From: Octopus sinensis
Lineage: Eukaryota
Direction of reading: 5' to 3'
DNA length: 64,000 nt
NCBI RefSeq assembly: GCF_006345805.1
Contig: NC_043007.1
Coordinates: 38,130,001 to 38,194,000 of the forward strand
Shown here in pieces: positions 4,204 to 58,375 of the stretch. Every line of letters begins with the position of its first letter. Positions within the stretch are counted from its first letter, which is position 1. The translations under genes and the position numbers were made by a program. The notes beneath the pieces were generated by a model that made no database searches, was not told the DNA's origin, and saw only the letters and a list, made by a program, of their open reading frames with translations.

Positions 4204-4246
4204 CCACTACAATTGTTTCTTGTCTTGATCGACAATCTTCAGGTGG
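4204..4246 (-). ncRNA. Minimal type I hammerhead ribozyme (PLE-type)
   Basis: Minus strand: CCAC-CUGAAGA-uuguc gaucaa gacaa-GAAA-CAAUUG-UA-GUGG. Intact core, 5-bp stem II, palindromic stem III, GUA cleavage triplet. Confidence 0.85.
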
Positions 4247-6699
4247 ACTTCCAATCTAAAATATCAATATTTTAAAATATAAAAATAATAATTTTAAAAT
4301 AATTAAAGTATGAATGAAAAAATATAAATATATAATCCATATATAACCTATATATAATCCATATATAATCAATATATAAACAATATATAAACTAAAATAA
4401 ACCTATCAACAATTAAATATAAAATATAAAATATAAAATATAAAATATAAAACAAAACAAAAAAATAATAATAATATAATAATAAACTATATATACACCC
4501 ATACACATATACCTAATTATATATAACCATATCTAACTACATACACTAAATCACACACCTATATATATATCCCTATACATACACATAAAAACGTCTAGGC
4601 AACTATAAATAAATAAAATAGCTAAATACTTCAACACAATACTTATTCATACTCCCACACACACACACATACAACCCACATTCACGCTCTAGAAAACGGA
4701 CATCACTTAAAATTATGAACGGAGAAATGGAATAAATGGAATTAAAAATTATATTCACTTGGTAAAACGAACACTACTTAAAAATTATGAATGAAACAAT
4801 GCAATAAAACAACAGACATCGCAAATAGACACAAATTACTACGAATTCCTTAACAAACCTACCATGATAAACCAAAACTCATAAAAACATATAATGATAA
4901 AATCTCCCTTTACTAAACTCTATAACATACCTATATAGCAATCCCCCTAACCTAAACATTCACACACAAATACACACACGTAAACCACACACCCACGACA
5001 TATACAAATACCCACACCACTTACACATACCTATACATACATATAAACCTCAACATATACTCCAAAAACCCACTCAACCCCACACAGACAAATAAACACA
5101 AAATTATGTGTGTGTTTGTGTGTGAATGTGTGAATGTGTATATGTGTATATGGGTTTGTTATTTAGGTTTTGGGATGTATGTGTTAATTTGTCTGTGTGG
5201 GGAGGGAGTGGGTTTTTAGTGTATATTGAGGTTTATAAGTTAGTATAGGTATGTGTATAAGTCGTGGGTCTGTGGTTTACGTGTGTGTATTTGTGTGTGA
5301 ATGTTTAGGTTAGGGGGATTGCTATATAGGTTTGTTATAGAGTTTAGCAAAGGGAGATTTTATCGTTATATGTTTTTAAGAGTTTTGGTTTATCATGGTT
5401 TTTTTAGGGAATTCGTGGTAATTTGTCTATTTTCGATGTTGGTTGTTTTATTACATTGTTTCATTCATAATTTTGAGTGGTGTTCGTTTTGCCACGTGAA
5501 TATTATTTTTAATTCCATTTATTCCATTTCTCCATTCATTATTTTAAAAGATGTTCGTTTCCAGAGCGGTTATACTTTTTATACATATGTTAAGTTCTTG
5601 GTAAAGTAATTTTGTTTGGTGTATATGTTGAGGCTTATATGTACTTGTGGGTGTGTGTGAGTGGGGTGGGTGTTTGTATTTGTTATGGGTGTGTGGTTTA
5701 CGTGTGTGTATTTGTGTGTGAATGTATAGGTTAAAGGGATTGCTATATAAGTATGTTATAGTGTTTAGTAAAGGGAGGTTTTATCATTTATGTTTTGTGA
5801 GTTTTAGCTTATCATGGTAGTTTTATAAAAGAATCCATTCATAATTTTTGTGTTTATTTGTCTGTGTGGGGTTGAGTGGGTTTTTGGAGTATATGTTGAG
5901 GTTTATATGTATGTATAGGTATGTGTAAGTGGTGTGGGTATTTGTATATGTCGTGGGTGTGTGGTTTACGTGTGTGTATTTGTGTGTGAATGTTTAGGTT
6001 AGGGGGATTGCTATATAGGTATGTTATAGAGTTTAGTAAAGGGAGATTTTATCATTATATGTTTTTATGAGTTTTGGTTTATCATGGTAGGTTTGTTAAG
6101 GAATTCATAGTAATTTGTGTCTATTTGCGATGTCTGTTGTTTTATTGCATTGTTTCATTCATAATTTTTAGTAGTGTTCGTTTTACCAAGTGAATATAAT
6201 TTTTAATTCCATTATTCCATTTCTCCGTTCATAATTTTAAGTGATGTCCGTTTTCTAGAGCGTGAATGTGGGTTGTATGTGTGTGTGTGTGGGAGTATGA
6301 ATAAGTATTGTGTTGAAGTATTTAGCTATTTTATTTATTTATAGTTGCCTAGACGTTTTTATGTGTATGTATAGGGATATATATATAGGTGTGTGATTTA
6401 GTGTATGTAGTTAGATATGGTTATATATAATTAGGTATATGTGTATGGGGTATATATAGTTTATTATTATATTATTATTATTTTTTTGTTTTGTTTTATA
6501 TTTTATATTTTATATTTTATATTTTATATTTAATTGCTGATAGGTTTATTTTAGTTTATATATTGTTTATATATTGATTATATATGGATTATATATAGGT
6601 TATATATGGATTATATATTTATATTTTTTCATTCATACTTTAATTATTTTAAAATTATTATTTTTATATTTTAAAATATTGATATTTTAGATTGGAAGT

Positions 6700-6742
6700 C
6701 CACCTGAAGATTGTCGATCAAGACAAGAAACAATTGTAGTGG
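6700..6742 (+). ncRNA. Minimal type I hammerhead ribozyme (PLE-type)
   Basis: ccac ctgaaga ttgtc gatcaa gacaa gaaa caattg ta gtgg; predicted cleavage after 6738. Confidence 0.85.
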
Positions 6743-6829
6743 CGGTTTTTTTGACTATTTATTAAAATTTTATGTATTGATTAAGTCTTTCCTTGTTTGT
6801 TTTGCAAAATAGTGGTTTTGTCTCTAATA

Positions 6830-6860
<31 letters not shown>

Positions 6861-7239
6861 CAGAGGCAACTCCATGTCATCAGCATCACTTAAGCTCAAC
6901 ACAGATCTTGCATAAGACACATGCCTTCTCAAAGAATTTCTCGTTTTTCCGCTTTATTTCTAGCCCCAAATGGCTTATTTTTTTATATCTAGCACTATGT
7001 CTTTCTCTATTTCTAAGTTAAGAGTAAAAATAAAGCAACCCTGCAAAACACAACTGATCTTTACATACAGACAACAGAATAAGAGCAATCAAATAACAAC
7101 AGCAGAGTGCACAACAAACATCAGCGATCTGACTGTCGCCTGTACTCTTGACAAGAGATACCAGTTAGTCTTTTACACTTACCAGGCTTGTTCGTATTAG
7201 CCTGAGCTGCTGGATAATTTTTTGCTCCTTTAAGAATAT

Positions 7240-7810
7240 TATAGAACAGAAACTTTTCATAGATTGGAATTTAAATCCTAATCTCAACAGAAATTTATTG
7301 TTTCAAGAAAACATTGGATTTGGGTTACTTTGAATTTTTACGATTATAGATAACAACTCAGGCTGTACCTTCTGAGTCCAAGTCAGGCATGTGTGAATGA
7401 TGTCAAGAGAACATCTGCTACGAATGATATTTTTTGACACAGGGCACCTCTAAGATGCCCACCAGATGTTGAACGAAAATAAATGAACTGCAACCAGACT
7501 CAATAATAGGAGCCTGAGTTATTGGCTGAAATTACATACTTAAAGCCAGTGTTGGCAGAAATTAAATCAGCTTGCAAATACACATTCACTTTACTAAATT
7601 TATACTCAGGCTAAGACCGAAGAGCCTGAGTGCCGGAGTCACCACTGATAGTGTAACTGCCTGAAGTGGTCGTGACTTCTGGGACTTGACCGATGAAAGA
7701 AAGCCTAGAATGACCCATCTATCCTTCTAATTGTTGTTTCTCTTGTCCGCTTTTGTATCGTCTATCTGTCCAAACATTTGAATGCCCTCTGTTGCATTTT
7801 TGTTCCATTT
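7240..7810 (+). mobile_element. Possible degraded PLE 3' region
   Basis: Short frame EQKLFIDWNLNPNLNR resembles the PLE GIY-YIG C-terminus. Also a hairpin ctcaggct/agcctgag, a 'ccgatgaa' remnant and a T-rich tail ending in (TA)n. Confidence 0.3.
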
Positions 7811-8404
7811 ATATATATATATATACACACATACATAGATATACATATATAGAGAGAGAGTGGATGTGGTTTAGTACTTGAAATAGTTGCAATGATTTTA
7901 TTTCCTTCAGGAGATGAATTGGCAGAAACTGAAGAACACACCAGACTAAAATGTTTTACGATATTTTATATTACATCAACAGAAAGCCACCTAGATCAAC
8001 ATGTAAGCGTCTTGCGAGTCAACATTAACATAGTTTCAAATTTTGGTTGAAATAAATTCCCTCATATTGTTGATATTACCTGGAAAGGTGTCAACATCAA
8101 AATATCCAATCCTTCTGAATTTGGTTAAGCATTTTTTTAAAAATTAGTCTCAGCACTCTATATACAGAGTTTTTAACTCTTTTCAGGCTTAACTTTACTA
8201 CTCATCCATCAATGACTATCACAGACATTCCCATCCCACTTGCCTCTCCTCTTCTCATCAATCCTTCCCTAGGACCTTGCACTAGTCATTACACCCAGTC
8301 CTTCTTTCCCAGAATGACAGCCCCTTGAAATTCCCTCTCAGTTTACGTCTTTTCTACATGTGTTGCATTGCAAAAGCGCAAAACGAACTTTAATAGAATC
8401 AATC

Positions 8405-8762
8405 TCACCAGCTGACCAAAAAGACACTTGGGTTTTAATTGCACAAAATTTCCTTGATTGTGTCAAGAATGATGAAAACTTTTTGAAAACTATGCATAGG
8501 CACCTGAGCAGGTATTGCCAAGCTTTTGGCAAAATTTTATGCAGATTCTCTGCTCAACTTGCTCTGTTATGGTCAGTGCGATGATCACATGCTACACACC
8601 TTCCTTCCAAGCACTGCTGTAAACAGCAAAAGTGAGCTAGAACATTAAAACTCAGTGCACATGCAGAGCAAAGTGCAAAGTCAATCTGTGCCAAAGCGGC
8701 TTCACTCTGCATGCTTTAGCTCATTACTATGGTAAAAGTCCAGATACTTATTGATCAGACTA
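8405..8762. mobile_element. Mariner-derived non-autonomous element, partial, with internal inversion junction
   Basis: Reverse-complement homologue of 11100-11460; TIR-like end gatacttattgatcagacta. Confidence 0.75.
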
Positions 8763-9049
8763 TATATATAAATATATATATATAGATAAATATATATATA
8801 TATATTTAGGATTACATTGTCCAACAAGTCCTTATCTGAATGAAAAGAAAGAAATTTGGCTGTTGTTTTAGCAACCGCATTGGCTGTTGTTATTGTCAGA
8901 AAGGGTGCAGCTTGGCACTGCACTTAAAATATTATATATTAAGTAGTTTGGGAAGTCAGCAATTCAGAGGTAAGAGTTTAGCTGACATTAAATAAATCTT
9001 GTTTGGTTTGGTTCAGTTCCGTGGTTGAAATTGTGAGGATGATTGGGAA

Positions 9050-9213
9050 AGTGGAGGGGTGGTAGTGGTGAAGAGGTAATGGAAGGTTGGGGTGATTGCA
9101 ATGAGAGTGGTAGTACAAGGAGTGGTGGTGGTGGTGTTAGAAGTAGTAGAGAGTGATGTTGGTGGTTATGGTGTTAATAATGAGGATGGTAGCGGAGAAG
9201 GAACTGATGTTGA

Positions 9214-9263
<50 letters not shown>

Positions 9264-9620
9264 ACAGTAGTAGTAGTAACAGTAGTAGTAGAAGAAGCAG
9301 TAGAGGATGTTTGTGGTGCTAAAAGTCATGATGGTGGTGGTAGTAGTGGTAGTGATGGTGATTATAATTATGACAGGTCACATTAATTGCTTTTATGTGG
9401 TCAGCAGTGGTGGTCAAGTTGGAGATAAGTGCTGAGTAGGGGTGGTGGTGGTGATGATGATAAGAAGAGTGGTGACAATTGTGATGTTTTTGTTGCTATT
9501 GGTGATAGTGGTGGTTGTGGTGGTGGTGAAGTTAATAGTGGTGAAAATAGCAGCTGTGATGTTAGTGGCAGTAGTGGTGGTGGTGGCGATGGTGGTAGTA
9601 GTGATGGCGATTGTTATGGT
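9050..9620. repeat. (TAG)n/(GGT)n low-complexity tract
   Basis: Direct inspection. Confidence 0.9.
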
Positions 9621-10091
9621 TCCAAGCACTGCTGTAAACATAACTACAAACTATGTATAGGACTATGTAAAAGATAATATATCTACAAGTACAAATAACT
9701 GAGTTCATGAACTTGCTGTCAGTGGGATGGTTATAACTGCATTGATGTTATTTAGCCCCAAGTCAGTCTGGTCCGAAAGACAATTATCAAAGGCATTATT
9801 TTATTCTTTTATTCTTCTACTTGTTTCAGTCATCTGACTGCGGCCATACTGGAGCACCACTTTGAAGAGTTGTTTTAATCCAACAAATTGCCCCCCAGGA
9901 CTTATTTTTTAAGCCTAGTACTTATTCTATCAGTCTCTTTTGTTGACCCACTATATATATATATATATGATATAAATAACACACACACACACACACATAT
10001 AGTTAATCCAAACAAGAAAGCACAAAAAAACACAACAACACGAGGACGTGGAACAAATATAGTATTACTGGACGCACAGGAAAGAAGGAGG

Positions 10092-10126
10092 GTTTAACGT
10101 TTCGAGCGGAGCTCTTCGTCGGAAAC
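10092..10126 (-). ncRNA. Variant minimal hammerhead motif in a PLE-type terminal-repeat fragment (~10000-10160)
   Basis: Minus strand: GUUU-CCGACGA-A-GAGC ucc GCUC-GAAA-CGUU-AAAC; U4->C core variant, AACGUU palindrome. Confidence 0.55.
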
Positions 10127-10358
10127 ATAGGAGAAGGAAAGATCCAGAGAAGGGAAGGGGCTTGTATGATTGTGTATAGAGATATATATATTATTCAAAG
10201 GAATTCCAACTCTGTCTGTTTTTTATGTTTTATTTATATTCTTTATAATATTAACGTAGAATATAGAATATATAGTATAAATAATATATATAGTGTAAAA
10301 TGAAATGAAGTATTGATTGTCTTATTGAATAGATGAAATATTGAATATCAAATATTAA

Positions 10359-10402
10359 GGGACTAGTATACTTTCTTGCATTAAAGCAGTCTTCAAGGTC
10401 CC
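10359..10402 (-). ncRNA. Degenerate minimal hammerhead motif in a PLE-type fragment (~10190-10440)
   Basis: Minus strand: GGGAC-CUUGAAGA-cugc uuuaau gcaa-GAAA-GUAUAC-UA-GUCCC. 5-bp stem I, palindromic stem III, one extra U in the core. Confidence 0.55.
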
Positions 10403-10461
10403 AGATTGTGACAGGAGTGTTTCAACTGTGGCCATACACTCATATATATATATATATATAT

Positions 10462-10636
10462 GAGCGGCTGCATGGTAATTAGCTTGCTTACAAACCACAT
10501 GCTTCCAGGTTCAGTCCCACTGCATGGCACCTTGGGCAAGTGTCTTCTACTCTAGCCTCAGGCCGACCTTGTGAGTGGATTTGGTAGACGGAAACTGAAA
10601 GAAGCCCATCGTATGTATGTATATATATATGTGTGT

Positions 10637-10671
<35 letters not shown>

Positions 10672-10876
10672 TTGTGTGTCTGTGTTTGTCCCCCCAACAT
10701 TGCTTGACAACTGATGGTTGTGTGTTTACGTCCCCGTAACCTAGCAGTTTGGTAAAAGAGACTGATAGAATAAGTACTAGGCTTACAAAGAATAAGACCT
10801 GGGGTTGATTTGCTCGACTAAAAGCAGTGCACCAGCATGGCCACAGTTGAATGACTGAAACAAGTAAAAGAGTAAA
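10462..10876 (+). mobile_element. tRNA-derived SINE family A (internal microsatellite, tail ...gactgaaacaagtaaaagag)
   Basis: A/B-box-like head ggctg..tggtaa...ggttcagtccc and CORE-like accttgggcaagt; many copies in the window. Confidence 0.85.
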
Positions 10877-11024
10877 CGATATAAATACAGAGGGAGACAG
10901 CTAGAAAATGGTGAAAGAGAGGTAAAAAGGGGAATTTGAGAAAGGATGAGACAGAAAACAGTATAGATTAGAGTTGCATCAAAAAGAAAAACCTATTTGG
11001 AAATAGATGCGTGGCATTCAATCA

Positions 11025-11092
<68 letters not shown>

Positions 11093-11099
11093 GCATATT

Positions 11100-11621
11100 T
11101 ATGAGGTCTGACCAATAAGTATCCAGACTGTTGCCATAGTAAGAAAGCTAAAGCAAGCAGAGTAAAGCTGCTTGGCACACATTGACCTTGAACTCTGCTG
11201 TGTATGCACACTAAGTTTTATGTCCTAGCTCACTCCCGCTGTTTACAGCGGTGCCTGGAAGGAAGGTGTGTAGCATGTGATTGTCACACTGACCATGACA
11301 GAAAAAGTTGAGCAGAAGATCTGCACCAAACTTTGCCAAAAGCTTGACGATACCTGCTCAAAGGCCTACACAAAGTTTTCAAAAAGTTTTCATTGTTCTT
11401 GACATAATCAAGGAGATTTTGTGCAACTGAAAACCGAGGGTCTTTTTGTTCAGCTGAAAGCTGTTTTGTTACAAACTTAGCAGACACACTTCTCATACCC
11501 AAATCTTCAGTGATAATGGATTGAACTGAACTGTAACTAATATGCACATCCTCTGATAACTCATAGATGGTGATTCAATGATTTCCCCACACAGCTGCAG
11601 GCACATCTACGATGTTTTTCT
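11100..11621. mobile_element. Mariner-derived non-autonomous element with inverted 5' end
   Basis: TA-tgaggtctgaccaataagtatcc TIR and plus-strand MTEKVEQKICTKLCQKL N-terminus, joined to minus-strand ITEDLGMRSVSAKFVTKQLSAEQK (mariner WVPxxL-region homologue). Confidence 0.8.
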
Positions 11622-12713
11622 TAGTTCTGCTGGTTGCGAGTCCCTCAGAACATTTGTCAATATCATGGACAGAAAGACCAATTTTATGACACCCCCTTGC
11701 AGACTACATTGTTGACAAATGACAGGGATCTTCTCTTTGTAGCTGGTGACTTCAATGGATATGTTGGACAACATGCAGGGGGCTTCCATGGCGTACATGG
11801 AGGCTATGGTTTTGGTTCTCGCAATGAGGAGGGAACCAGGCTGCTGGAGATCTGCGAAGCAAATGATCTTACGGTTTGGAATACTAACTTCAAGAAACCT
11901 GCCAGTCACCTACCGATCTGGTAGACACACTAGCCAAATTGACTACATCCTTGCCAGAAAAAGGGAAAGATGGCTGCTTATAAATGCCAAAACCTTTCCA
12001 GGCGAAGAATGTACCCCACAACTTAGACTAGTAGTTAGCGACTTCAGGATCAGGGCTAAATGGATGACCAGAAGACAACCAGCATGAAGGAGAAGGGTCT
12101 GGAAGCTTAAAGATCCTGCGAATAGACAGAGATTTAGAGACATATTACTCAAAGCTTTTGACGAAATAGAGGGGGATATAGCATCACATAATGTGGAAGA
12201 CAACAGGAGGTTTCTATGGAACAACCTGCTGATAGCCACTGACCAGATCTGTGGATGGTGCAAAGTCTTTAGATATAAATAATTACAGAGGTATCAAGAT
12301 GTTGGATCAGGTAATGAAGGTCACAGAGAGGGTCATAGCTCAACTAATTAGGGAGAGAGTCAGTCTAGATGAGATACAGTTTGGGTTCATACCAGGGAAA
12401 AGCACCGCTGATGCAATATTTCTGGTAAGACAGCTGCAGGAGAAATACCTAGCCAAAGATAAACCTCTGTACTTGGCTTTCGTTGACATGGAAGAAAGCC
12501 TTTGACAGGGTCCCAATCCCTTATCTGGTGGTCAATGAAGAAACTAGGGATAGATTAATGGTTAGTGACAGCTGTGCAAGCTATGTACAGGGATACTGCC
12601 AGTAAATTGAGGGTTGGCAACGAGTACAGTGAAAAATTCCAGGTAGGGATAGGGGTACACCAAGGATCAGTCCTCAGCCCCCTCTTTTTCATCATAGTCC
12701 TCCAGGCAATAAG
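11622..12713 (+). mobile_element. RTE-clade LINE fragment (APE endonuclease + RT), frameshifted and internally deleted
   Basis: Motifs AGDFNGYVG...GGYGFGSRNEEG, QIDYIL, NYRGIK, QFGFIPGKSTADAIFLVRQLQEKY and GVHQGSVLSPLFF. Confidence 0.9.
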
Positions 12714-13518
12714 AGAGGATCCAAGGTCTGTACATCTTGCAACTGTCACCATCAAGGAAACCATTGATCATGTTCACTACAGAGTGATGGATGACAAGTG
12801 ATTGACTATAAATCAAATAGCCAACACTATTAGCATATCTGTGAGTGAGTTGAAACCATTCTGCACAATGAACTTAGCATGACAAAGGTTGCTGTTCGGT
12901 GGGTGCCACATCTGACACCAGATCATATCACAGATAGATCTGATATTGTTTGCAGCAAGTCCAGCTGGTTTCCTTGAATGTTTCCTAAGTTAGGGTGAGT
13001 GCTAGCTTCATCACCTTGAGCCAGAGGCAGAGAGACAATCCATGCAGTGGAAACACCCCTCCTCACTTGTTTTAAAAGAGGCCAAGGTTATTTCATCTGC
13101 AGGGAAGGTGACAGCCTCACATTTTTGGGATGGAAAATGCAATGTGTTTATTGATTATCTTCAAAAGGGCCATAATACCAATGGAGAATATTATGCCAGC
13201 TTGCTGAGGCAGTTACAAAAGGTTATCAAAACCAAATGTCCAGGAAAACTGACAAAAGGGGGTCATGTTTCACCAGGACATGCTCCAGTAAATAAGTCCT
13301 TCATTTCAATGACTATTGTGTGTGACTGTGGCTTTGATGATGTTTTTGACCGACAAGATGAAAGCTTCTTCACCAACAGGACCCAAGCACTGCAACACTG
13401 ATGAAAGAAGTGTGTGGACCACAAGGAGTGGGGTCTATGTTGAAAAAATAAACCTCATTTGGTCCCATTCCATGAAAGCATCTTGGTCAGCCTATGAACA
13501 TTTTAGCTGACCCTCATA
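12714..13518 (+). mobile_element. Mariner transposase relic with 3' TIR
   Basis: EDPRS...LTINQIA, 'cggtgggtgccac' (RWVP), SMQWKHPSS...AGKVTASHFWD...IDYLQKG...NGEYYASLL; ends ...gaccctcata. Confidence 0.85.
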
Positions 13519-14349
13519 CATACCATTACTTAAGAGAAATCACTAAAAAATTAAGAACAGACTTGGTTATTTACCCTGCTCTTCAAATTTTAACAATACC
13601 TCATCTGTTAGAAATAGAAGGCCTCCTTCAAATCACATGCTACTGCTTTGAATAGAGAAGGATAAAATACAAGGACAACGAGGTATGTTCCTGATGCACA
13701 AATAAGATGGGGTGGTCACAGCTACAATATCTTTCTTTTGTCATAATTAACCTGACCAGCCACTAAATACCCCCACCACCTTCACAAACGAACCACAAAA
13801 AATAACACCAGAGTAAAGGAGTTAAAAAAAGAAATCTCAGCTAAAACAGATAAAACCAGTTCTACAATCTTGATTACACTTTCCTTTTCCATTCTTTTTT
13901 CTTCTTTTTTTTTGACTATTTTCTCTCCATTACTTATTCATGCCAACAACTTGAGTTGGTGGTGGTGAGGTCAGCAGACTTCAATACTGTTAGAGCAATT
14001 TCTTATTGCTTCAACAGCTGGATGTCTGCCCTTTTTGTTCAGCTAACAAACCCAACCATGAAGTACAAGTGAAACCTGTTTGTCAGTCAGACAAGCCAGA
14101 CTAAGTATGGGTTAGATGGTTATGTACTTGGCCCAGTTAAATTGGGTTAAGCCCAGCTGATATATCTAATTATGGCACTAACTTCCAGTGAAGTGGTTAA
14201 AATGTCCTAAACATAACTAACACTTAATTTAACCATTCGGCATTCAGGTTGCTGTCAGATATAATACATACATAGTCACACTGATTTTAATTAATCATGC
14301 ATTATCTTGTATTCAAAAGATTTCAATGATGTGATTGTTGATTTTTTTA

Positions 14350-14904
14350 CCCATGCCGGTGGCACGTAGTGCCTCACAGAGGAAATGACGAAGACCAAGA
14401 CCTCTGAGATATACTGTGACTATGAAGACCCAACAAATGAAGTGAGTTCATGGCTCGCAGGACAGCCTGCTGTGCTAACCTTGGATGATGGAGTGACCTG
14501 CTGTTCTTGAGGAGACCTTGTGAGTCAAGTACATCAACACCAACATCAAAATGAAAATCAAATGGAAATTATAGTTAAGATACCCATGCCGGTGACAAGT
14601 TAAAAGCACCGTCCGAACGTGGCAGATGCCAGTACTGCCTGACTGGCATCCGTGTCGGTGACACGTAAAAGCACTAACCAATCATGGTCGTTTGCCAGCC
14701 TCCTCTGGCCCCTGTGCCGGTGGCACATAAAAAGCACCTACTACACTCATGGAGTGATTGGTGTTAGGAAGGGCATCCAGCTGTAGAAACACTGCCAGAT
14801 CAGACTGGAGCCTGGTGCAGCCTCCTGGCTTCCCAAACCCCGGTCAAACCATCCAACCCATACTAGCATGGAAAGCGGATGTTAAACAATGATGATGATG
14901 ATGA
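14350..14904 (+). mobile_element. RTE-type 3'-tail retroposon ending in (GAT)n; related copies at 29185-29470 (+), 32835-33128 (-) and 60632-60770 (-)
   Basis: Shared ttaggaagggcatccagctgtagaaac...catgctagcatggaaagcggatgttaaac(gat)n. Confidence 0.75.
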
Positions 14905-15460: not shown

Positions 15461-15527
<67 letters not shown>

Positions 15528-25889: not shown

Positions 25890-26138
25890 AAATGGATGAA
25901 TGAATTATCCTTTGTTTACCGTTAACATGGAAAATTCAATAAACAGTTACCAGGGTAGCAAAATTCACGCAAGTAACAAGGATGTAGCGACCTATTCAAA
26001 GGTAGAAACTCCGGGTTAATGTGCAGTAATTTGTGTAGTATAAGTAAATAAATGGAGTTGAAATCAGGTGTTATTCAAATTCTTTTACTTTCGACATATG
26101 TTTCGAAGACAGCATTAGTTTTATTCCAAAGGAATAAA
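25890..26138 (-). mobile_element. PLE-type terminal fragment with the 3' half of a hammerhead
   Basis: Minus strand cuucGAAA-CAUAUG-UC at 26104-26093. It starts at a (TA) tract, and its 5' half is missing where a SINE begins at 26139. Confidence 0.45.
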
Positions 26139-26548
26139 GGTGCAGGAGTGGCTGTGTGGTAAGTAGCTTGCTTACCAACCACATGGTTCTGGGTTCAGTC
26201 CCACTGCATAGCACCTTAGGCAAGTGTCTTCTACTATAGCCTCGGGCTGACCAAAGCCTTGTGAGTGGATTTGGTAGACGGAAACTGGAAGAAGCCAGTC
26301 ATATATATGTATATATATATATATGTGTGTGTATATGTTTGTGTGTCTGTGTTTGTCCCCCCCAACATCGCTTGACAACCGATGCTGGTGGGTTTACGTC
26401 CCCGTAACTTAGCGGTTCGGCAAGAGAGACTGATAGAATAAGTACTAGGCTTACAAAGAATAAGTCCTGGGGGCGATTTGCTTGACTAAAGGCAGTGCTC
26501 CAGCATGGTCACAGTCAAATGACTGAAACAAGTAAAAGAGTAAAAGAG
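26139..26548 (+). mobile_element. SINE family A, full length
   Basis: Same head, body and tail as other family A copies. Confidence 0.9.
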
Positions 26549-46148: not shown

Positions 46149-46179
<31 letters not shown>

Positions 46180-47651: not shown

Positions 47652-47652
47652 C

Positions 47653-47683
<31 letters not shown>

Positions 47684-47713
47684 ATATATATATATATAAT
47701 ATATAATATATAT

Positions 47714-47755
<42 letters not shown>

Positions 47756-47853
47756 TATATAATATATATATTATAATATATATATATATATAATATATTA
47801 TATATATATTATAATATATATATATATATTATATATATATATAATATATATAA

Positions 47854-47928
<75 letters not shown>
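47652..47928. repeat. Long imperfect (TA)n tract
   Basis: ~275 bp almost entirely A/T. Confidence 0.95.
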
Positions 47929-47929
<1 letters not shown>

Positions 47930-47930
<1 letters not shown>

Positions 47931-48360
47931 TGAAGGTGCGTGGCTTAGTGGTTAGGGCATTCGGCTCACGATCGTAAGGGCGTGGGTTCAATTTCCGGCG
48001 ACGCGTTGTGTCCTTGAGCAAGCCACTTTATTTCACGTGGCTCCAGTCCACTTAGCTGCCAAAAGTGAGTAGTACCTGTATTTCAAAGGGTGATACTTTG
48101 TTGAAGTGAAAGTTTGTCAAAGTGAAAGTGAAACTCCAATCATAACGATTGCAGCATATATTTTACCTCAGACTGGAAAAATTAATGAATGTGAAACTGT
48201 AAGACTACTACAGTGTGTCACGCTGAATCTCCCTGAGAACTACGTTAAGAGTACACGTGTCTGTGGAATGCTCAGCCACTTGCACGTTAATTTCACGAGC
48301 AAGCTGTTCCGTTGATCGTATCAGCTGGGACCCTCGTCGTCGTAACCGACGGAGTGCTCC
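47930..48360 (+). mobile_element. SINE family D carrying a 127-bp local templated insert
   Basis: Colinear with the 22900 copy except 48090-48216, which copies 46503-46627. Confidence 0.85.
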
Positions 48361-48494
48361 TCCTCCATACATGTACACATGCATGTATGTATGTACGTAC
48401 GTATGTACGTATGCATGTGTGTATATGTCATCATTGTCACAATCATTTAACATCCATTTTCCATGGGTGTTTTTATTTTCATGACATCATCACT

Positions 48495-49220
48495 TGTAAG
48501 ACAGTAAAACTAAGAGTAGGGAGATAGAGAAGAAAGAGGCTTTATACCTAAGCCTAATGTAAGATCACCATTTGTAAGCCTGTTTGTATGTTTCACCATA
48601 CAAACAGGCTTTAAAATGTTGAGTCTAGAGAAAGACAGAATACCCATGACCTTTGCAAGTCAATCATCACTTGCAGGAAAGACATGAGCAGGACAATTTT
48701 CTGTTGAGGAAGAACTAAGAAAAGTGGTTAATGTGGGGATGCACAAAGGGGACACAGCAAAGGTGACATGAGATGGAGTGATGAGTTTGTAGTGGAGCCA
48801 TCTTGGAAATCTCCAGCACGCATGCACAGAGTCGGATTCTTCCGGCAGGCCTACTGGAAGTTCCCTCATGCGCATGTGCAGAAAACTAGCAGCAGTGAAA
48901 TTTCCCTCATATCGTCCTCTCGAACGCTGGCAGACGAACAAGACTATCGTGATTTAGCAGCTCTCTCAAGCTGCTACCTCGTGGCAGTTCTCCGCTATGC
49001 TTGAATGGATAGGATTTGGCTCACTACATTTGACTACTGCAACGAGCCCCTAGGCTGCCGATTCGCCCTGAAAGAAGAATGTATATATTGCGAATCCAGA
49101 AATAAAATATTTATACTGTTGAGGTTAATCGGAAGTCTTGACCCTTTCCTTCGATTAATATTTTAACGTCAAGGATGTGAGCTGCATCCATCCAGTGCAG
49201 GGACCTCTCATCCTGTTACA
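48495..49220 (+). mobile_element. Candidate solo LTR
   Basis: GC/CpG-richer block bounded by TGTAA...TTACA with AATAAA near 49101; no direct TSD found. Confidence 0.45.
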
Positions 49221-49935
49221 AGTTGTTTAGGGGTAACCAAGTAGAGGTGGTGCAAAACAAACCAATAAAAATCTATGTCACTACAGATCTTGCTAGTAAA
49301 ACAATCCTTTCTATTATAGGCACAAGCCTGAAATTTGGGATGGGGGCAGTCGAATAGATCGACTCCAACACACAACTGGTACTTAATTTATCAACCCTGA
49401 AAAGATGAAAGGCAAAGTTGACCTTGATGGAATTTGAACTCAGAACGTACTGACTAACTAAATGTCATTAAGCATTTTACCTGCAAGCCTAATGGTTCTA
49501 CCAGCCTGCCGCCTTCTTACCAGTAAAATAATGCAATAGTAAATACTCAACATATGGTGGAAAGCTGAAAGAAGCATTTTGCCTGTCTTTACGTTCTGAG
49601 TTCAAATTCTGCCAAGGTCGACTTTGCCTTTCATCCTTTTGGGGGTCCATAAAGTAAGTACCAGTTGTGTACTGGGGTCGATGTAACTGACTTACACCCC
49701 ACCTCCACTCCTCCACCCAAAGCTGCTGACCTGGTACCAAAATGTGAAGTCAATAATTACACAAAATGTGGTTTGTGTATTCAAACAACACATTTCAAAT
49801 CCTAATTTGTAACCTCACAACAAGGCTTACATGAACATGTTTGTAAAAATGTGCATTTGACAATTGTAGAAAAATTTATGGATATTTTTGTGCTTTCATT
49901 TCAAGGGAATGATTTGTTTTGTAGAGTTAGATATA

Positions 49936-50333
49936 GGCACAGGTATGACTGTGTGGTAAGAAACATGTTTCCCAACCACATGGTTCCAGGTTCAGTCCTG
50001 CTGTGTGGCACCTTAGGCAAGTGTTTTTCTACTATAGCCTTGGGCCAACCAAAGCCTTGTGAGTAGATTTGGTAAACGAAAACTGAAAGTAGCCCATTGT
50101 GTGTTTGAGTGTGCTTGTCTTTGCATCTGTGTTTGTCTCCCATCACCATCAAACAACCGGTGTTGGTATGGTTACATCCCTGTAACTTAGCAGTTCAACA
50201 AAAGAGAATGATAGAATAAGTACCTGGCTTAAAAAGGAAAATAAGTACTGGGATCACGTCATTCGACTAAAAATTGTTCAAAGCGATGCCCCAGCATGAC
50301 TGCAGTCTAATGACTGAAACAAATAAAAGATAA
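49936..50333 (+). mobile_element. SINE family A, older copy
   Basis: Diverged but colinear with family A. Confidence 0.8.
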
Positions 50334-50489
50334 CAAAAAAAAAGATGTACAAGCAGATAAAAGACTATCAGTAGAAAGCAAAAACAGTTAAACACATGTA
50401 CTTAAACTGGTTGAAATTACTCTGAAGAGGTTAGGCTAAGGCTAGTCTCTAGGAGGAAGAGTAAGTGTGTGTCAAATAGCACAGCTTAC

Positions 50490-50492
50490 CAT
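50490..50492 (-). CDS. GMF: Candidate GMF first coding exon (ATG only), distal/alternative
   Basis: Minus strand reads gctaccATG|gtaagc: strong Kozak context plus a strong donor, in non-repetitive sequence. Confidence 0.45.
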
Positions 50493-50970
50493 GGTAGCTA
50501 GTCAGGGAAGAGAATACTAAACAGCTGGTTATTTGATCTGCTATCAAGCGAATGACTCAAGAAACAGGTTGTGGGCATGAACAAATTTTCATTTGATTCA
50601 CCCTTTTGATACCAACTCTGTGTGTGTGTGTGCAGACTTGTGTATCTATGTATGTATGTTTGAATTAGCTTGTAGTTAAATGAGTTTTCTACACACATGT
50701 GCAGTCGAAAGATAATCCTTATCAAACTTAGATTGACACAGTGAGTTACAAGATAACCCCTTAGAATTACAAATGCAGTCCATCTAATGTGTTTCTATAT
50801 TTGAATGCAGGAATTGCCACATGATTAGGAAGTTTATTTCCCAGTTCAATTCCTGGTTCAATCTCATTGTGTGGTATCTTAAGCAGGTGGTCTTTTTTTT
50901 AAAACCAGACCCTCAGTTTGACTCTAGATTTATATCTGAAATTGATTGAGAGAAAAGTAATTGATAACTA

Positions 50971-51386
50971 AGGCAGCAAGCTGGCAGAAACGCTAGCACG
51001 CCAGGCGAAATGCTTAACAGTATTTCATCAGGCTTTACATTCTGAGTTCAAATCCCACTGAGGTCAACTTTGCCTTTCATCCTTTCAGGGTCAATTAAAT
51101 AAGTACCAGTTATGCACTGGGGTTGATATAATCGACTTAATCCATCTGTCTGTCCTTGTTTGTCTCCTCTGTGTTTAGCCCCTTGTGGGTAGTAAAGAAA
51201 TAGGTATTTCGTCTGGCTTTACATTCTGAGTTCAAATTCCACTGAGGCCAACTTTGCTTTTCATCCTTTCCAGGTCAATAAATTAAGTACCAGTTACGCA
51301 CTGGGGTTAATGTAATCGACTTAATCCCTTTGTCTGTCCTTATTTGTCCCCTCTATGTTTAGCCCCTTGTAGGCAATAAAGAAATA
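50971..51386 (+). mobile_element. SINE family B dimer with 19-bp TSD
   Basis: TSD agaaaagtaattgataact at 50951-50969 and 51387-51405; the second monomer is 5'-truncated and starts at 51203. Confidence 0.9.
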
Positions 51387-51961
51387 AGAAAAGTAATTGA
51401 TAACTGTGAATTCACTGTTTACAATATAATTAGCTGATATCAAGATGCACAGACAATATTGGAAAGTGTATTTGAAATTAGCTTCATGCATTCATTTATT
51501 AATACAATAATACCTATGTGTCTGCTATTTGAAAAGACTTTCAGTATTAATGGTGAGAGGCTTTCAAATATGAAGGATCACCTCTAAAACAAAAAAATAA
51601 AGATATTGAATATATTTTTGTAAAATTAGAAACCAACCAAACTTAAAAACACTATTACTTAACCATTTACCTGTGAATCACATGTGACATGTGGGACATT
51701 TCCCTGGCATTCATGCATCATATATGATACACATTTCCAAATTTTTTTAACAACCAGAGTAACTTGGGACTTATGAAAGGAAAGCTTTATATTGCTCAGA
51801 ATGTATGAAACAAGGTTAACTAAAAGTCTGAAAGCAAGCATAGATGTTTAGGACAAACTTAGGAAAATACTTTGGACAGGCAAAGAGTTGAAGTACTGGC
51901 TAATTTTAATGAAGAAGTGAAGGTGTCACAGGGTACCTCTGTAAAAATATGTGAAGATATA

Positions 51962-52193
51962 TTTTTCTTTATTGCCCACAAGGGGCTAATTATAGGGAGG
52001 ACAAACAAGGACAGACAAAGGGATTAAGTCGATTACATCGAACCCAGTGCGAAACTGGTACTTTATTTATCGACCCCAAAAGGATGAAAGGTAAAGTCGA
52101 CCTCGGCAGAATTTGAACTCAGAATGTAATGACAGACGAAATACTGCTGAGCATTTTGCCCAGCACGCTAACGTGTCTGCCAGCTCACCGCCC
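51962..52193 (-). mobile_element. SINE family B with 17-bp TSD
   Basis: TSD aaatatgtgaagatata at 51945-51961 and 52195-52211. Confidence 0.92.
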
Positions 52194-52759
52194 TAAATAT
52201 GTGAAGATATAATAAAGAAAAGACAACTGGAGAAGAGCCATTAAAATAAGCAACTGAAGAAGACAGACAGATAGGTAAGTAGGTAGGTAGGTAGGTAGGT
52301 AGGCAGACAGACAGACAGAAAAGGCAGGAAGAGAGAAAGACATTAATAAACAAAAGATTAAAATGTGTAATAGTGTGTGTTGACTAAAAATTAATTCTGC
52401 TTATAATCTACATTACAAAGTTCAAAGACAATCTCTATGTGTATATATTGACTGTGGTTGGGCTTCAGTATGTTTTTGTTGTTGTTGTTCACAGGATGGA
52501 GAGAAGAAAGCATGGACAAAAAGGGAAGAGGATGTAGAAAAAGTTTTGAAAACAATGAATGCAGTATCTTGAGGAATAAAGCTAGCTGGAACCAAAAATC
52601 ATTGTTGTTATTATTGTTGTAGAGGTGCATGGCCCAGTGATCAGGGGCATTTAGCTGTGCTGTCTTAAGGCATGAGCATACTGCACAGCTGGCTGAAGAA
52701 AATCTGCCTCAATACTCTCCATCTGATCCATACAAGCAAGGCAGAATGGACATTAAATC

Positions 52760-52983
52760 GATGATGGTGATGATGATGATGATGACAACAACAACGATGA
52801 TGATGAAAATGACGATGACAACGACGATGACAACAATGATGACGATGATGATGAAAATGATGATGACAACGATGACGACGACAACAACGATGACAACGAC
52901 AACAACGATGACAACGATGATGACGACGATGACAACAATGACGGCGATGACAACAATGACGACGACGACAATGATGATGATGT
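52760..52983. repeat. (GAT/GAC/AAC)n trinucleotide tract
   Basis: Direct inspection. Confidence 0.92.
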
Positions 52984-54067
52984 ATGTTTCATTTGAGAGA
53001 TGAAACTGGGAAAACAAGTTTATTGTTGTTAAAACCAGCTCATTGAAGAGCCAAGCCTTTCAAACATCTAGGCTTCATTTTGAAAATTCATTTATATAAA
53101 TTTATTAATCATAAATTTAGCAATTCAGCTACAGGTATGATGGGCATTTCGATGCTTTGGGTGATTTTGGTGTTGCTTTTGAGAATGTTATTGTTGTTAT
53201 TATTGCTAATAATGATAATGATGTTTTCAATATCACTACTTTTTTGTTTTTGCATTTAATTTTGCTTTAGGGCTTTGTCAGAGAAGAAAGGGGCAATAAT
53301 TGTAACTATTGCAGAACCTCTGAGACTTGTTGGTGAAAAACAGCTGAGACTCATAGGTGACTCTAGAAGGAACCAGCACATCTATCTGCGTCCACTACTG
53401 ACCTGAACCTAACATCTGCTATAAGATCATGTCTGTATCATGATCATTATCACCACCACCACCCACAAAACACCACCACCAGCACCAACCACCAACACCA
53501 CCACCACTAACCACCAATGCTGCCACCTGCACCAACCACCAACACCACCACCATCACAGCCACCACTGCCACCACCACCCACTACCACAACCATCACAAA
53601 CCATCACCACTGCTGCCACCACCCACTACTATCACTACCACCACCACTGCCATCATCATTGTCATTTTTACACCTGTTTTTCCGTGCTTGGATGGCTTGG
53701 TTTGTCCCTCTCCAACACAACTTCTTGTTGCCATCTTTATGAAGTTCAAAATCCTGAGGCCAGCTTTCACCACTTCTTTCAGTTTTTCTCATTAAAAAAG
53801 ATTTTTTTTTCTTCTTTTTCTGGTTCACAACATTAAGCCTGATAGTCTGCACTTAACTATGTGTTTTTCATGCAGAAGGCATCCCAGGAAATTTTCCCAC
53901 ATGACTTTGGATAATGTAATTCTGGATACACTATGATTAAATTAAGAATACACCCTTCATCACAAGTCTTTCATCATCAGTCAGTCAGACAGGGCTGAGC
54001 TGGGGTGGTGAGGTTAGGCTAAAAAATAATACTAAACAATAATACTTACATTGTATTATTGTTTACA

Positions 54068-54240
54068 GGCGTAGGAGTGGCTGTGTGGTAAGTAGCTTGC
54101 TTACCAACCACATGGTTCCAGGTTCAGTCCAACTCCGTGGCACCTTGGGCAAGTGTCTTCTAGTATAGCCTCAGGCTGACCAAAGCCTTGTGAGTGGATG
54201 GTAGACGGAAACTGAAAGAAGCCCGTCGTATATATGTATG

Positions 54241-54272
<32 letters not shown>

Positions 54273-54502
54273 AATATATATATATACATGTGTGTATATG
54301 TTTGTGTCTGTGTTTGTCCCCCCAACATCGCTTGACAACTGATGCTGATGTGTTTATGTCCCCGTAACATAGCAGTTTGGCAAAAGAGACTGATAGAATT
54401 AAATACTAGGCTTACAAAGAATAAGTCCTGGGGTTGATTTGCTTGACTAAAAGTGGTGCTCCAGCATGGCCACAGTCAAATGACTGGAACAAGTAAAAGA
54501 GA
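54068..54502 (+). mobile_element. SINE family A, full length
   Basis: Same head, body and tail as other family A copies. Confidence 0.9.
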
Positions 54503-55417
54503 TATGTTGTTCATAAGCAGAGATGTTGCAGAACAATATGCTAAAATCTCTCAAACTTGAAACAAAAGCCAGGCCTGATCCTTGATTGACCTTAAAAATC
54601 TGGGAGATGCCTGGAAGGACTATAGATTCTGCCCCACCTACTTGGATAAAAGGATTAAATAATAAATAATAAAAAAACAAGACTAAATCACTGGACTATT
54701 TTGTTAAATATGTATATGTGTGTTTGTGTGTGCACATACGTTTGTGTGTAGTGGATATATAGGTCATAAGGCAGTGTGTTTAAAGGTCAGAAGTCAAAAG
54801 TACATCTATCAACCAAATTTATCAAACAAAATATTTTAGCTGATTGCAGAATAATCACATGGGCTTTCTTTCTCTCTTTCTTTCTTTCTTTCTTTCTGTC
54901 ATTTAATGTATTGAACCATTAACAAAACATCCAGGACAGATAATTATTATTTTTTTATTATTATGGTTACTCGACTTTACCATATTTGCCACTTTTTTTT
55001 TTTCGAGGATATTAGCTTTCTCATAGTGTGGCTGTGTGATAAGAAGCTTACTCTCCAACTACATGGTTCCAGATTCAGTCCCACTGGGTGACACCTTGGG
55101 CAAGTGTCTTCTACTATAGCCTCAGGGCAACCAAAGCTTTGTGTGTGAATTTGGTAGATGGAAACTGAAAGAAGCCTGTCATATATATAAGTATATATAT
55201 AAAAATTAGAAAAAAAAACACCTTTTATCAATTCAAAATAAACAATTAAATTACACCATCTAGAAAATTACATAAATAGAAATATTAAAAATAAAATAAC
55301 AATAATATACTGATGATTAAGTAAAATTCAAATTAATAATATAAACTTATATATTTGTTTAATATTTCTATTTATGTAATTTTCTAGATGGTGTAATTTA
55401 ATTGTTCATTTTTTCTA

Positions 55418-55462
<45 letters not shown>

Positions 55463-55467
55463 ATATA

Positions 55468-55870
55468 ATGTCTCTATGAGAGATTTAGAAATTCAGTATT
55501 TCTTATTTTGATAATCAGTGAATAGACTTCACTGAATTATAGATATATACAATTACGAAGTTGAGACAAATATCACCAGCTGACCGGTGTCTGCTACTCT
55601 AGGCCGATGAAGGACAATGATCCTGAAACACGTGTCCCTAGATGCAGCTTCAGCAGCCGGGGCTGTTTGTCTCCCCTTCGTAAATGTATATAATGACACA
55701 GGGAAAAATGTGTCAAAGCCATCAGGACGCGTTCGATGCTTCCTAGGGCTATACAGCGGTCGTGTACCCCCTACTGTTACGTTCGTGTTAGATTGACAGT
55801 ATACAACCATTCTATCGCCCCACCACCATACATGTCTCTACGAGAGATTTAGAAATTCAGTATTTCTTAT
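55468..55870 (+). mobile_element. Retrozyme/PLE-like 364-bp unit with 39-bp terminal direct repeat
   Basis: atgtctcta(t/c)gagagatttagaaattcagtatttcttat occurs at 55468-55506 and 55832-55870. The unit contains a hammerhead and is flanked by (TA)n. Confidence 0.65.
55598..55642 (+). ncRNA. Minimal hammerhead ribozyme with CCGAUGA core variant
   Basis: tctagg-ccgatga-agga caatga tcct-gaaa-cacgtg-tc-cctaga: 6-bp stem I, 4-bp stem II, palindromic stem III, GUC triplet. Confidence 0.75.
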
Positions 55871-56454
55871 ATATATAATATTTTGTGAAATTTGATTTAG
55901 TATTTCTAAATTGAATTTTTCCCTGTAAGTTAGGAATAATATTCCCTCAAATAATTATTATAAGTATATATATATCTATGTGTGTGTGTCTGTGTTTGTA
56001 CCCCACCACTGCTTGACAGCTGATGTTGGTGTGTTTATGTCCCCATAACTTAGCGGTTCAACAAAAGAGACCGATAGAATAAGTACTTTGCTTTAAAAAA
56101 AATTAGTCCTGGGGTCGATTCATTTGACTTCAAGGTAGCACCTCAGCATGACTGAAACAAGTAAACAATAAAAGATACTAATGATTTCAATATCATCAAA
56201 ATTATATTTCAGAGTGTACATGCCAGACAAGTTACTTGATCTGAGACTATGTGTTGAAACTAAAACGATTGCAACATGGAAGAAGACATGTGTCAGCCAT
56301 TCACTAGCACATGAAGATGTTAATATTACTTAAACATTTATTATAGTAATTAAACATTAAAAGTAACAATTTCTAACTTTAAAAAGCTCCAGGCCCACTT
56401 TTGCTCTTCTCTGTCACAAGTTGGTTCTTATCATGATGTTATGATATTTGATAT

Positions 56455-56848
56455 TATTTTCTTCTTGCTTATTCCAGTCATTTGACTGTATCCATTCTGG
56501 GGCACAGCCCTGAAGAATTTATAGTTGAATGAATCAACCCCAGTACTTATTTTTTGTTAAGCCTGGTACTTATTCTCTCGGTCTCCTTTGCTGAGATGCT
56601 AAGCTACAAGGATGTAAATACACCAACCGCAGTTGCCAAGCAGCAGTGGGGGGGCAAGCACGGACACAAACACACACATATACACACAACAGGCTTCTTA
56701 TAGATTCCATCTACCAAATCTACTCACAAAGCTTTGGTTGGCCTGAGACTATCATAAAAACACTTGCCCAAGGTGCTATGCAGTAGGACTGAACCCAAGA
56801 CCATGTGGTTAGGAAGAAAACTTCTTACCACACAGCCACACCTGAACC
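56455..56848 (-). mobile_element. SINE family A, diverged
   Basis: Reverse complement of family A. Confidence 0.8.
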
Positions 56849-57023
56849 TACGTATTTTTTATAAATTTTCCATTTATTTCACTTGATGTGCCAGCCTCAC
56901 TGTTTGTGTTTTTATTTTTGCTTTGTAAAATATTTCCTCAATAACATACTAAGCCACAAAAACATAGTCTGTGTTAGTCCTGTATATACACATTTACATA
57001 TTTAGGGTATTTATGTCTGTATA

Positions 57024-57255
57024 GGGCGGCGAGCTGGCAGAAACGTTAGCACGCCGGGTGAAATGCTTAGCGGTATTTCGTCTGCCGCTATGTTGTGAGT
57101 TCAAATTCCGCTGAGGTCGACTTTGCCTTTCATCCTTTCGAGGTTGATAAATTAAGTACCAGTTACGCACTGGGGTTGATGTAATCGACTTAATACCCAT
57201 GCCTGTCCTTGTTTGTCCCCTCTATATTTAGCCCCTTGTGGGCAATAAAGAAATA
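57024..57255 (+). mobile_element. SINE family B with 17-bp TSD
   Basis: TSD ggtatttatgtctgtat at 57006-57022 and 57256-57272. Confidence 0.92.
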
Positions 57256-58095
57256 GGTATTTATGTCTGTATGTGTGTATGGAAGGTTATATGGATGTGT
57301 AGGGGGATGTCAGTTTTTTTCTATATTGAGATTTGAGAGAAAATTCTAAGATGACAGGTGCTATGCAACTTCATATCAAAAACCCACCAAACACTGCTTA
57401 TAATGCAAGAATTGAACCTGTAAATAAAAGAGATGGAAAAAAGATGTTGAGTATTACAGTTGTTTCGAAGGTACATCGGGTGTATCTTATGTGGCATTAT
57501 GAATGTACTGTAACTGTCCAGTGTACATTTTCCTTGGGTACATATGACACTTTAGTTGAAAATAGTCTACTGTAGTGGAGAATGCAGAAAAGAAAAAAAA
57601 TGGGAATGGAGATTGAAATCAGTAAAAAAACGAGGTGTGCATTACTAACCAATTACCTTAGCGAGATAGACAGGGGTGTGGTATCATTTCATTATCAGCA
57701 TGCTCAAATTTTTGCAGTGGCTGATAATGAAATGGAACAGACATATGTAAACAAGCGTGTGTGTATACATATGTGTGTATGTTTATCTCTATATATATAA
57801 AACTGAGAATGTCTGTCTGTCTGTGTGTTTCCCTATGTCTTCAGGTGCTTAGTCCCAGCTGGCGGGGGTGATTGCCTCCCCTTTGCAAATATAAGGACAC
57901 AGAAAATGTGTCAAAGCTGACAGAAGACATCAGTGTTTCCTAGGGCTAAATGGCGGTGGTGTAATTCCCTTACGGGACTGTCACATTGAGTTGACAGTAT
58001 ACGACCACTATATCCTTAAATTGATTTTTGTGTTATATAAAAAACAATAGACATGCAGTGCATGACTAGCATGTCTCAACTGCACCCCGCTGATA

Positions 58096-58149
<54 letters not shown>

Positions 58150-58156
<7 letters not shown>

Positions 58157-58375
58157 ATCAAAGCAATTAAGATTCAAGTCAATTCCAATGAATTTACTTG
58201 AATGTGGTACTTAACTTAGATGCACCAGAAAAACTATATGGTGTTAACCATACAGTAATGTGGGGTGATTATAAACGAGAAAGAAGCAACAAGAATGGAT
58301 TAGTTTTTAGTACAATTGTATGAAACAATTGTACTAAAAACTAATCCATTCTTGTTGCTTCTTTCTCGTATATAA
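58150..58375. mobile_element. PLE-type fragment with a perfect 45-bp foldback
   Basis: Arms 58275-58319 and 58325-58369 are exact reverse complements. The fragment contains GAAA-CAATTG-TA (a hammerhead 3' half) and has (TA)n flanks. Confidence 0.6.

What the first reader, a model, noticed from the sequence alone, without database searches (positions are those of the whole stretch)
4204..58369. Several hammerhead families, each with a different self-complementary stem III: a possible dimerisation code
Within 64 kb the motifs show GAAA followed by CAAUUG (4204, 6700, 58322), CACGUG (55625), GUAUAC (10359), CAUAUG (26093) and A-ACGU-U (10092). All are palindromes, with family-specific stems I and II. 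Palindromic stem III in PLE hammerheads is known. The diversity here suggests co-existing families keep orthogonal pairing keys, so that only like-with-like RNAs form active dimers.
Basis: partly seen in the sequence, partly recalled or inferred. Interest (0 to 1): 0.7.

Follow-up and report, generated by a model that had tools for sequence, protein, structure and literature searches.

The report
Penelope-type hammerheads, shared palindromes
These seven sites are copies, two of them cut short, of hammerhead (self-cutting RNA) motifs from six mobile-repeat families of a known kind; each family mostly keeps one short palindrome that likely lets two copies pair and cut, but unrelated families share palindromes, so the palindrome alone is not a private code.

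Summary
The motifs are real: 5 of 7 sites are complete type I hammerheads (two are arms of one insertion); 58322 and 26093 are 5'-truncated copies of families whose full motif has a long stem II. They belong to six repeat families of 233 to 12,814 pattern matches genome-wide: three with Penelope-like ORFs upstream in other copies, one 364-bp retrozyme-type unit, two unassigned. The palindrome is stable within a family (82-92 of the first 100 copies in four families) and changes between subfamilies by compensatory steps, with G-U intermediates (family A: 69 CGAUUG, 27 CAAUUG). This supports dimer pairing, which is published. The code reading fails: unrelated families share keys (CAAUUG twice in this window; CAUAUG, CACGUG, CUCGAG, CCGG elsewhere); 10 lineages use 5 keys against 7.6 by chance; stem III changes not significantly faster than stems I/II (p=0.17). 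In a double hammerhead stem I is also swapped between partners, so like-with-like pairing likely comes from stem I plus stem III together, as a by-product of divergence. Cleavage untested. The scan noted the same on other DNA.

The parts
4107..6839 (.). One 5'-truncated, inverted insertion of family A, the 3' part of a Penelope-like element with a long non-coding tail
   Evidence: Inverted arms 98-100%; 5107-6844 is 96-97% identical to L237/L254, which continue upstream into RT-like and endonuclease-like ORF pieces
4204..4246 (-). Family A type I hammerhead, left arm; CCAC CUGAAGA / ACAAUUGU / GUA
6700..6742 (+). Family A type I hammerhead, right arm; predicted cut after 6738
   Evidence: 2,600 genome matches, control 0
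10092..10126 (-). Family B minimal hammerhead, CCGACGA core, stem III reduced to ACGU
   Evidence: 12,814 matches vs 38 control for the CG-key pattern; 30 of 30 loci cluster with the window copy
10359..10402 (-). Family D atypical hammerhead, key GUAUAC, weak stem II
   Evidence: 320 matches, control 0, GTATAC in 83 of first 100; no ORF link found
26088..26143 (-). Family F hammerhead, 3' part only (core lost); key CAUAUG
   Evidence: 616 matches, CATATG in 82 of first 100; full copies have CUGAUGA about 55-60 nt upstream and PLE-like ORF pieces
55468..55879 (+). Family C retrozyme-type unit, 364 bp plus a repeated start of about 48 bp
   Evidence: repeat starts 55468 and 55832; tandem copies 355-369 bp apart elsewhere
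55599..55641 (+). Family C type I hammerhead, CCGAUGA core, key CACGUG; predicted cut after 55636
   Evidence: 233 matches, CACGTG in 89 of first 100
57834..58014 (+).
   Evidence: 93% to L168
58275..58369 (+). Family E end: perfect hairpin from inversion inside the hammerhead; 3' half GAAA CAAUUG UA at 58322-58333, no core
   Evidence: family has 260 matches, CAATTG in 92 of first 100, core 59-60 nt upstream in 11 of 12 loci

Best explanation
These are short-stem-III type I hammerhead motifs from six Penelope-like and retrozyme-type repeat families, and they likely cut only as a pair, two copies joining through the palindrome. Shown: the motifs, their families, key stability, compensatory key changes and key sharing. 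Inferred: in a double hammerhead each active centre takes the core from one copy and UH plus the 3' arm of stem I from the other, so both stem III and stem I must match across partners; the usual partner would be the next copy in a tandem transcript. Selection would then demand only self-complementarity, so each lineage's key drifts along a path Watson-Crick > G-U > new Watson-Crick (CUCGAG > CUCGGG > CCCGGG; CAAUUG <> CGAUUG). Different keys, and like-with-like pairing, would follow from divergence without selection for orthogonality.
For: Self-complementarity far above chance with the inner four letters left free: 54 perfect and 16 G-U self-pairing words in the first 100 of 6,120 matches (control 539), chance 6% and 14% for equal bases (hand count); 41 of 48 structurally good sites; 43 of 211 vs 6 of 115 in the unselected 1.06 Mb. 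Keys track clades on a tree built with the key masked. Wobble-keeping variants are amplified, their strand mirrors not: CGATTG 69 of 100 vs 0 genome matches for CNATCG; T-G 9 vs C-A 1 at the outer variable pair, while CpG decay in family C is even, 3 vs 4. Free co-folding gives the double hammerhead with swapped stem I for A:A and C:C (about -9 to -10 kcal/mol vs monomers) and 0 to -2.8 for mixed pairs. Keys shared by unrelated families; 5 keys in 10 lineages vs 7.6 expected. Key-sharing unrelated pairs have 0-2 cross pairs in stem I. Dimer cleavage of this motif type is published (PMC4209133, PMC7229834, PMC6765202).
Against: No cleavage or expression data here. Stem III shows somewhat more Watson-Crick-to-Watson-Crick changes (9 over 2 pairs) than stems I/II (23 over 8 pairs), p=0.17, on a weakly resolved tree. 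One retrozyme lineage alone uses seven perfect palindromes, and the CUGCAG subfamily is separated from its sisters by the key only, as selection for separation would predict. The wobble asymmetry rests on few independent source elements. At the inner pair non-pairing C-A (4) exceeds T-G (0). B:B and D:D co-folds are not double hammerheads. Copy 5' ends show no pile-up at the cut site in a biased set.
Confidence: 0.78

Rival explanations
1. Selected orthogonality: among sister subfamilies that still share stem I, key switches are favoured because they stop cross-pairing with relatives.
For: Seven perfect palindromes within one retrozyme lineage, keys clade-specific; the CUGCAG subfamily has compatible stem I (4-6 pairs) but 2 stem III mismatches with sisters; outer key pair has the most changes of 10 pairs; different keys pair poorly; discordant palindromes do lower partner choice in HIV-1 (PMC3605237).
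Against: Sisters L174, L179, L181, L321 stay fully cross-compatible; excess of changes not significant; unrelated families collide at or above chance; pairing in cis within tandem transcripts removes most of the need.
Confidence: 0.1
2. The hammerheads work as monomers (helped by proteins or tertiary contacts) or are inactive relics; the palindrome is inherited without a pairing role.
For: Low in vitro activity of minimal PLE hammerheads (PMC4209133); 8 of 9 Xenopus dimer elements did not cleave (10.64898/2026.07.22.740005); some invertebrate retrozyme monomers do cleave (PMC7229834); families A, C, D lack the G10.1-C11.1 pair; a high-copy CACGUG family has poor stems.
Against: A monomer's 4-nt loop need not be palindromic, yet the inner pair switches CG<>GC together (32 CG, 8 GC of 52); a 2-bp monomer stem III costs +2.4 to +2.9 kcal/mol.
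Confidence: 0.1
3. Chance words: GAAA plus a palindrome picked by eye from AT-rich repeats.
For: The bare word occurs 2.9 times per shuffled window; two sites lack a core; no Rfam hit.
Against: Every site belongs to a family of hundreds to thousands of copies with full motif and controls of 0-38.
Confidence: 0.02

Closest known systems
Minimal and small-palindromic-helix-III hammerheads of metazoan Penelope-like elements (Cervera and de la Pena 2014, PMC4209133; first two of four parts read)
   Same: Type I topology, short stem I, palindromic 15.2-16.2/loop 3, many consensus families per genome, U3-A8 core variant, opposite-strand pairs, intron end next to helix I, predicted dimers
   Different: Families E and F have a 55-60 nt stem II region; A, C, D lack G10.1-C11.1; keys are not tabulated by family in the parts read
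Lunse, Weinberg and Breaker 2017, PLE hammerhead variants cleave as dimers (PMC5785218; not held, known only from its title and from PMC6765202 and PMC6466107 passages)
   Same: Palindromic very short stem III, dimer cleavage
   Different: Could not check whether it tests heterodimers or lists palindromes
Metazoan non-LTR retrozymes (PMC7229834, parts 2-3 of 6 read; Li et al. 10.64898/2026.07.22.740005, part 1 and passages)
   Same: Family C: 364-bp non-coding unit, tandem copies, type I hammerhead; mussel units are 350-390 bp
   Different: Circular RNA and cleavage not shown here; this superfamily has switched keys many times
HIV-1 dimerisation initiation signal palindromes GCGCGC/GUGCAC (PMC3605237, passages)
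   Same: A 6-nt palindrome biases RNA partner choice; lineages differ in the word
   Different: Packaging signal, not a catalytic stem; effect measured (2.3-2.7 fold); here stem I must also match and nothing is measured

Membership tests
Type I hammerhead, short palindromic stem III | Core CUGANGA...GAAA...UH closed by stems I and II | tested here: met
   5 of 7 sites (U4C in B and C; D atypical); E and F complete in other copies only
Type I hammerhead, short palindromic stem III | Self-complementary stem III/loop kept by covariation | tested here: met
Type I hammerhead, short palindromic stem III | G10.1-C11.1 closing pair of stem II (usual, not universal) | tested here: inconclusive
   Present in B and F, absent in A, C, D, E
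Type I hammerhead, short palindromic stem III | Self-cleavage as a dimer | not testable with these tools
   Only computed folds
Penelope-like element | RT plus C-terminal GIY-YIG ORF upstream of the hammerhead | tested here: inconclusive
   A and F: collinear ORF pieces with RT-like motifs, no Pfam hit for them, Atlas neighbours carry RVT_1/HTH_animal in 11-67% of members; E: one weak endonuclease-region hit in 2 of 14 loci; none linked for B or D. The CCGG family outside the window has RVT_1 above cut-off and GIY-YIG below it
Penelope-like element | 5' truncation with inverted copies | tested here: met
   A and E in the window and in many head-to-head pairs (feature from PMC8557442)
Penelope-like element | Intron ending next to stem I, spliced and unspliced copies | tested here: inconclusive
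   Family A loci show two upstream forms meeting after ...TTAG; donor site not mapped
Non-LTR retrozyme (family C) | 150-450 bp non-coding unit with type I hammerhead, in tandem | tested here: met
   364-bp unit; tandem spacing 355-369 bp
Non-LTR retrozyme (family C) | Circular RNA | not tested
   No RNA holder on record; no reads laid
Orthogonal palindrome code | Key constant within a family | tested here: inconclusive
   82-92 of 100 in C, D, E, F; two cross-pairing keys in A (69/27); B searched with key fixed
Orthogonal palindrome code | Key unique among co-existing families, beyond chance | tested here: not met
   Shared keys; 5 distinct of 10 vs 7.6, P(<=5)=0.022
Orthogonal palindrome code | Heterodimers inactive | not testable with these tools
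   Predicted for unrelated families through stem I, not for several sister subfamilies

The most novel reading that the evidence does not exclude
Stem I and stem III together form a self-recognition address, and among sister retrozyme subfamilies that share stem I the palindrome is driven apart by selection, a reproductive barrier between selfish RNAs reached through G-U intermediates.
Probability: 0.1. Interest if true: 0.7.

Novelty: new member of a known kind. Interest (0 to 1): 0.3.

Why it matters
As it stands it adds families to a known class and gives a clean natural series of compensatory change in an intermolecular RNA helix, with matched pairs for the bench: same key with different stem I (A, E), same stem I with different key (CUGCAG vs CUCGAG subfamilies), and wobble intermediates. 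These make it directly testable whether such hammerheads pair in cis or in trans. If selection for separation were shown, it would be a self/non-self system among retroelement RNAs.

Tried and rejected
Rfam scan: only repeat-driven miRNA/snoRNA matches below gathering score. DNA search of the genome with the family A motif returned nothing; patterns were used instead. A short-stem-II pattern for family E gave 17 vs 38 control because its stem II is long. Single-strand folding z-scores of the four complete motifs are not significant (-0.03 to -1.18). A first collision test (4 keys in 10) was dropped because one of its families came only from a key-fixed search; one search replaces it. The second CACGUG family (stem II UGUACCUCAU, 9 of 30 loci) has poor stems and is not counted as a sure hammerhead. 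Copy boundaries at the cut site: no pile-up, set biased to full motifs. Lunse 2017 not held. Searches for a heterodimer or code claim found nothing relevant (0 papers; 23 papers, 20 listed, none on this by title); subscription papers and supplements were not seen and may tabulate palindromes.
Full report
Setting. The window is G000:C11:38130001-38194000 of a 2.72-Gb genome, AT-rich and full of simple and interspersed repeats, with no long coding frame beyond a transposase fragment at 13006. All tallies of 'first 100' below are hand counts of the first 100 places listed in genome order; they are not random samples and include both arms of some insertions.

Observation. All seven words are present. 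Five sites have a full type I hammerhead; 4204 and 6700 are arms of one inverted insertion. 58322 is a hairpin formed by inversion inside the motif and 26093 is cut by another repeat; both lack the core. Strict motifs with self-complementary stem III number 4 in the window and 0 in 30 of 30 shuffles. Rfam has no hit.

Families. A (4204/6700): 2,600 matches; CGATTG 69, CAATTG 27, other 4. The window copy is 96-97% identical to the 3' part of L237 and L254, which run upstream into RT-like and endonuclease-like ORF pieces; Pfam does not recognise these pieces, the Atlas places one near RVT_1/HTH_animal clusters. B (10092): 12,814 matches with the CG key fixed, control 38; 30 of 30 loci cluster with the window copy. 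C (55625): 364-bp unit with tandem copies, 233 matches, CACGTG 89. D (10359): 320, GTATAC 83, no ORF link. E (58322): 260, CAATTG 92; core 59-60 nt upstream in 11 of 12 loci. F (26093): 616, CATATG 82; long stem II and PLE-like ORF pieces upstream. A young autonomous element outside the window has RVT_1 (E 3.5e-8), a sub-threshold GIY-YIG, a U3-A8 core and key CCGG in 31 of 32 motifs.

The palindrome is kept for pairing. With the inner four letters free, 6,120 matches (control 539) gave 54 perfect and 16 G-U self-pairing words in the first 100. I fetched 98 of these places; 93 sites were recovered, 48 had good stems I and II, and 41 of those 48 self-pair. In 1.06 Mb not chosen by key (100 stretches plus the window), 43 of 211 relaxed hits self-pair vs 6 of 115 in the control. 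On a tree of 27 retrozyme-type copies with the key masked, keys follow clades: CACGUG, CAUAUG, CUGCAG, CUCGAG/CUCGGG, CCCGGG. Amplified variants keep pairing through G-U: CGATTG dominates family A whereas its mirror CNATCG has 0 matches; T-G 9 vs C-A 1 at the outer variable pair, though these come from few source elements; decay after insertion is even in family C (3 vs 4) and leans to the non-pairing side at the inner pair (4 vs 0). A monomer's loop need not be palindromic, so this points to pairing between copies (inference), as published for this class (PMC4209133, parts 1-2 of 4 read; PMC7229834, parts 2-3 of 6; PMC6765202 and PMC6466107, passages).

The palindrome is not a private code. 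A and E share CAAUUG with no flank similarity; a third lineage also uses it. CAUAUG is used by F, by a retrozyme subfamily with a truncated copy at 57834, and by a third lineage. CACGUG: 30 loci plus the window fall into clusters of 17, 9 and five singletons, the 9 being doubtful hammerheads. CCGG is shared by two elements about 50% identical in protein. Ten lineages from the key-free search and the window use 5 keys; a uniform draw from 16 gives 7.6, P(<=5)=0.022. Caveats: I chose the lineages and their majority keys, merged two by eye, entered A as CAAUUG, and the null ignores base bias and deep kinship. On 52 of 58 retrozyme-type sites stem III shows 9 Watson-Crick switches over 2 pairs and stems I/II 23 over 8, p=0.17.

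Mechanism. In a double hammerhead U16.1 and H17 come from the partner, and the 3' arm of stem I follows H17, so stem I is swapped too (topology; seen in the A:A and C:C co-folds). Unrelated key-sharing pairs have 0-2 cross pairs in stem I (A/E and the two CCGG families are clean cases; in three other pairs the copy tested has a damaged stem I), B and B2 keep 3, and retrozyme sisters L174, L179, L181, L321 are cross-compatible in both stems; the CUGCAG subfamily differs from them by the key alone. Different keys pair poorly, wobble neighbours well. So like-with-like pairing is probable between unrelated families, but from both stems and as a by-product; the likely partner is the next copy of a tandem transcript. 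No cleavage or expression was shown.

Comparison. This matches PLE hammerheads and non-LTR retrozymes; a 2026 preprint derives the latter from PLEs and has 0 occurrences of 'palindrom'. PLE insertion structure is from PMC8557442 (passages). The nearest true palindrome code is the HIV-1 DIS (PMC3605237, passages). Two searches for a heterodimer or code claim found none; Lunse 2017 and all supplements were not seen. Earlier notes of this scan reached the same view on other DNA; my reading was logged before I saw them.

Verdict. Real, known class, new families; orthogonal code not supported, narrow version about 10%. Interest 0.3.

Noticed in passing
L397 and L299 (families E and F): Hammerheads with a 55-60 nt stem II region holding inner hairpins; short-stem descriptors miss them.
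   Followed up: partly
L001-L030, just upstream of the family A hammerhead: Two upstream forms meet at the same point after ...TTAG, like unspliced and spliced copies of a pLTR intron.
   Followed up: no
window 4300-6650; L237, L254, L063: Family A has a 3-4.5 kb non-coding tail with internal repeats between the endonuclease region and the hammerhead.
   Followed up: partly
L139-L160 (9 loci): A repeated family keeps core and CACGUG key but has poor stems I and II; an alternative hairpin could hide the core.
   Followed up: no
window 10359-10402; L255-L284: Family D is short, flanked by (TA)n or other repeats, with an extra base before the core and a C-A mismatch at the base of stem II in nearly all copies.
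   Followed up: partly
L205-L234: Young autonomous Penelope-like family, ORF about 784 aa, many copies 97-99% identical, U3-A8 core, key CCGG.
   Followed up: partly
L071, L095, L046, L064, L128: Other key lengths in the unselected sample: 10, 8, 6, 4 and 2 letters, all palindromic.
   Followed up: no
window 13006-13401: Fragment with a partial DDE transposase domain (PF01359, E 3.5e-14).
   Followed up: no
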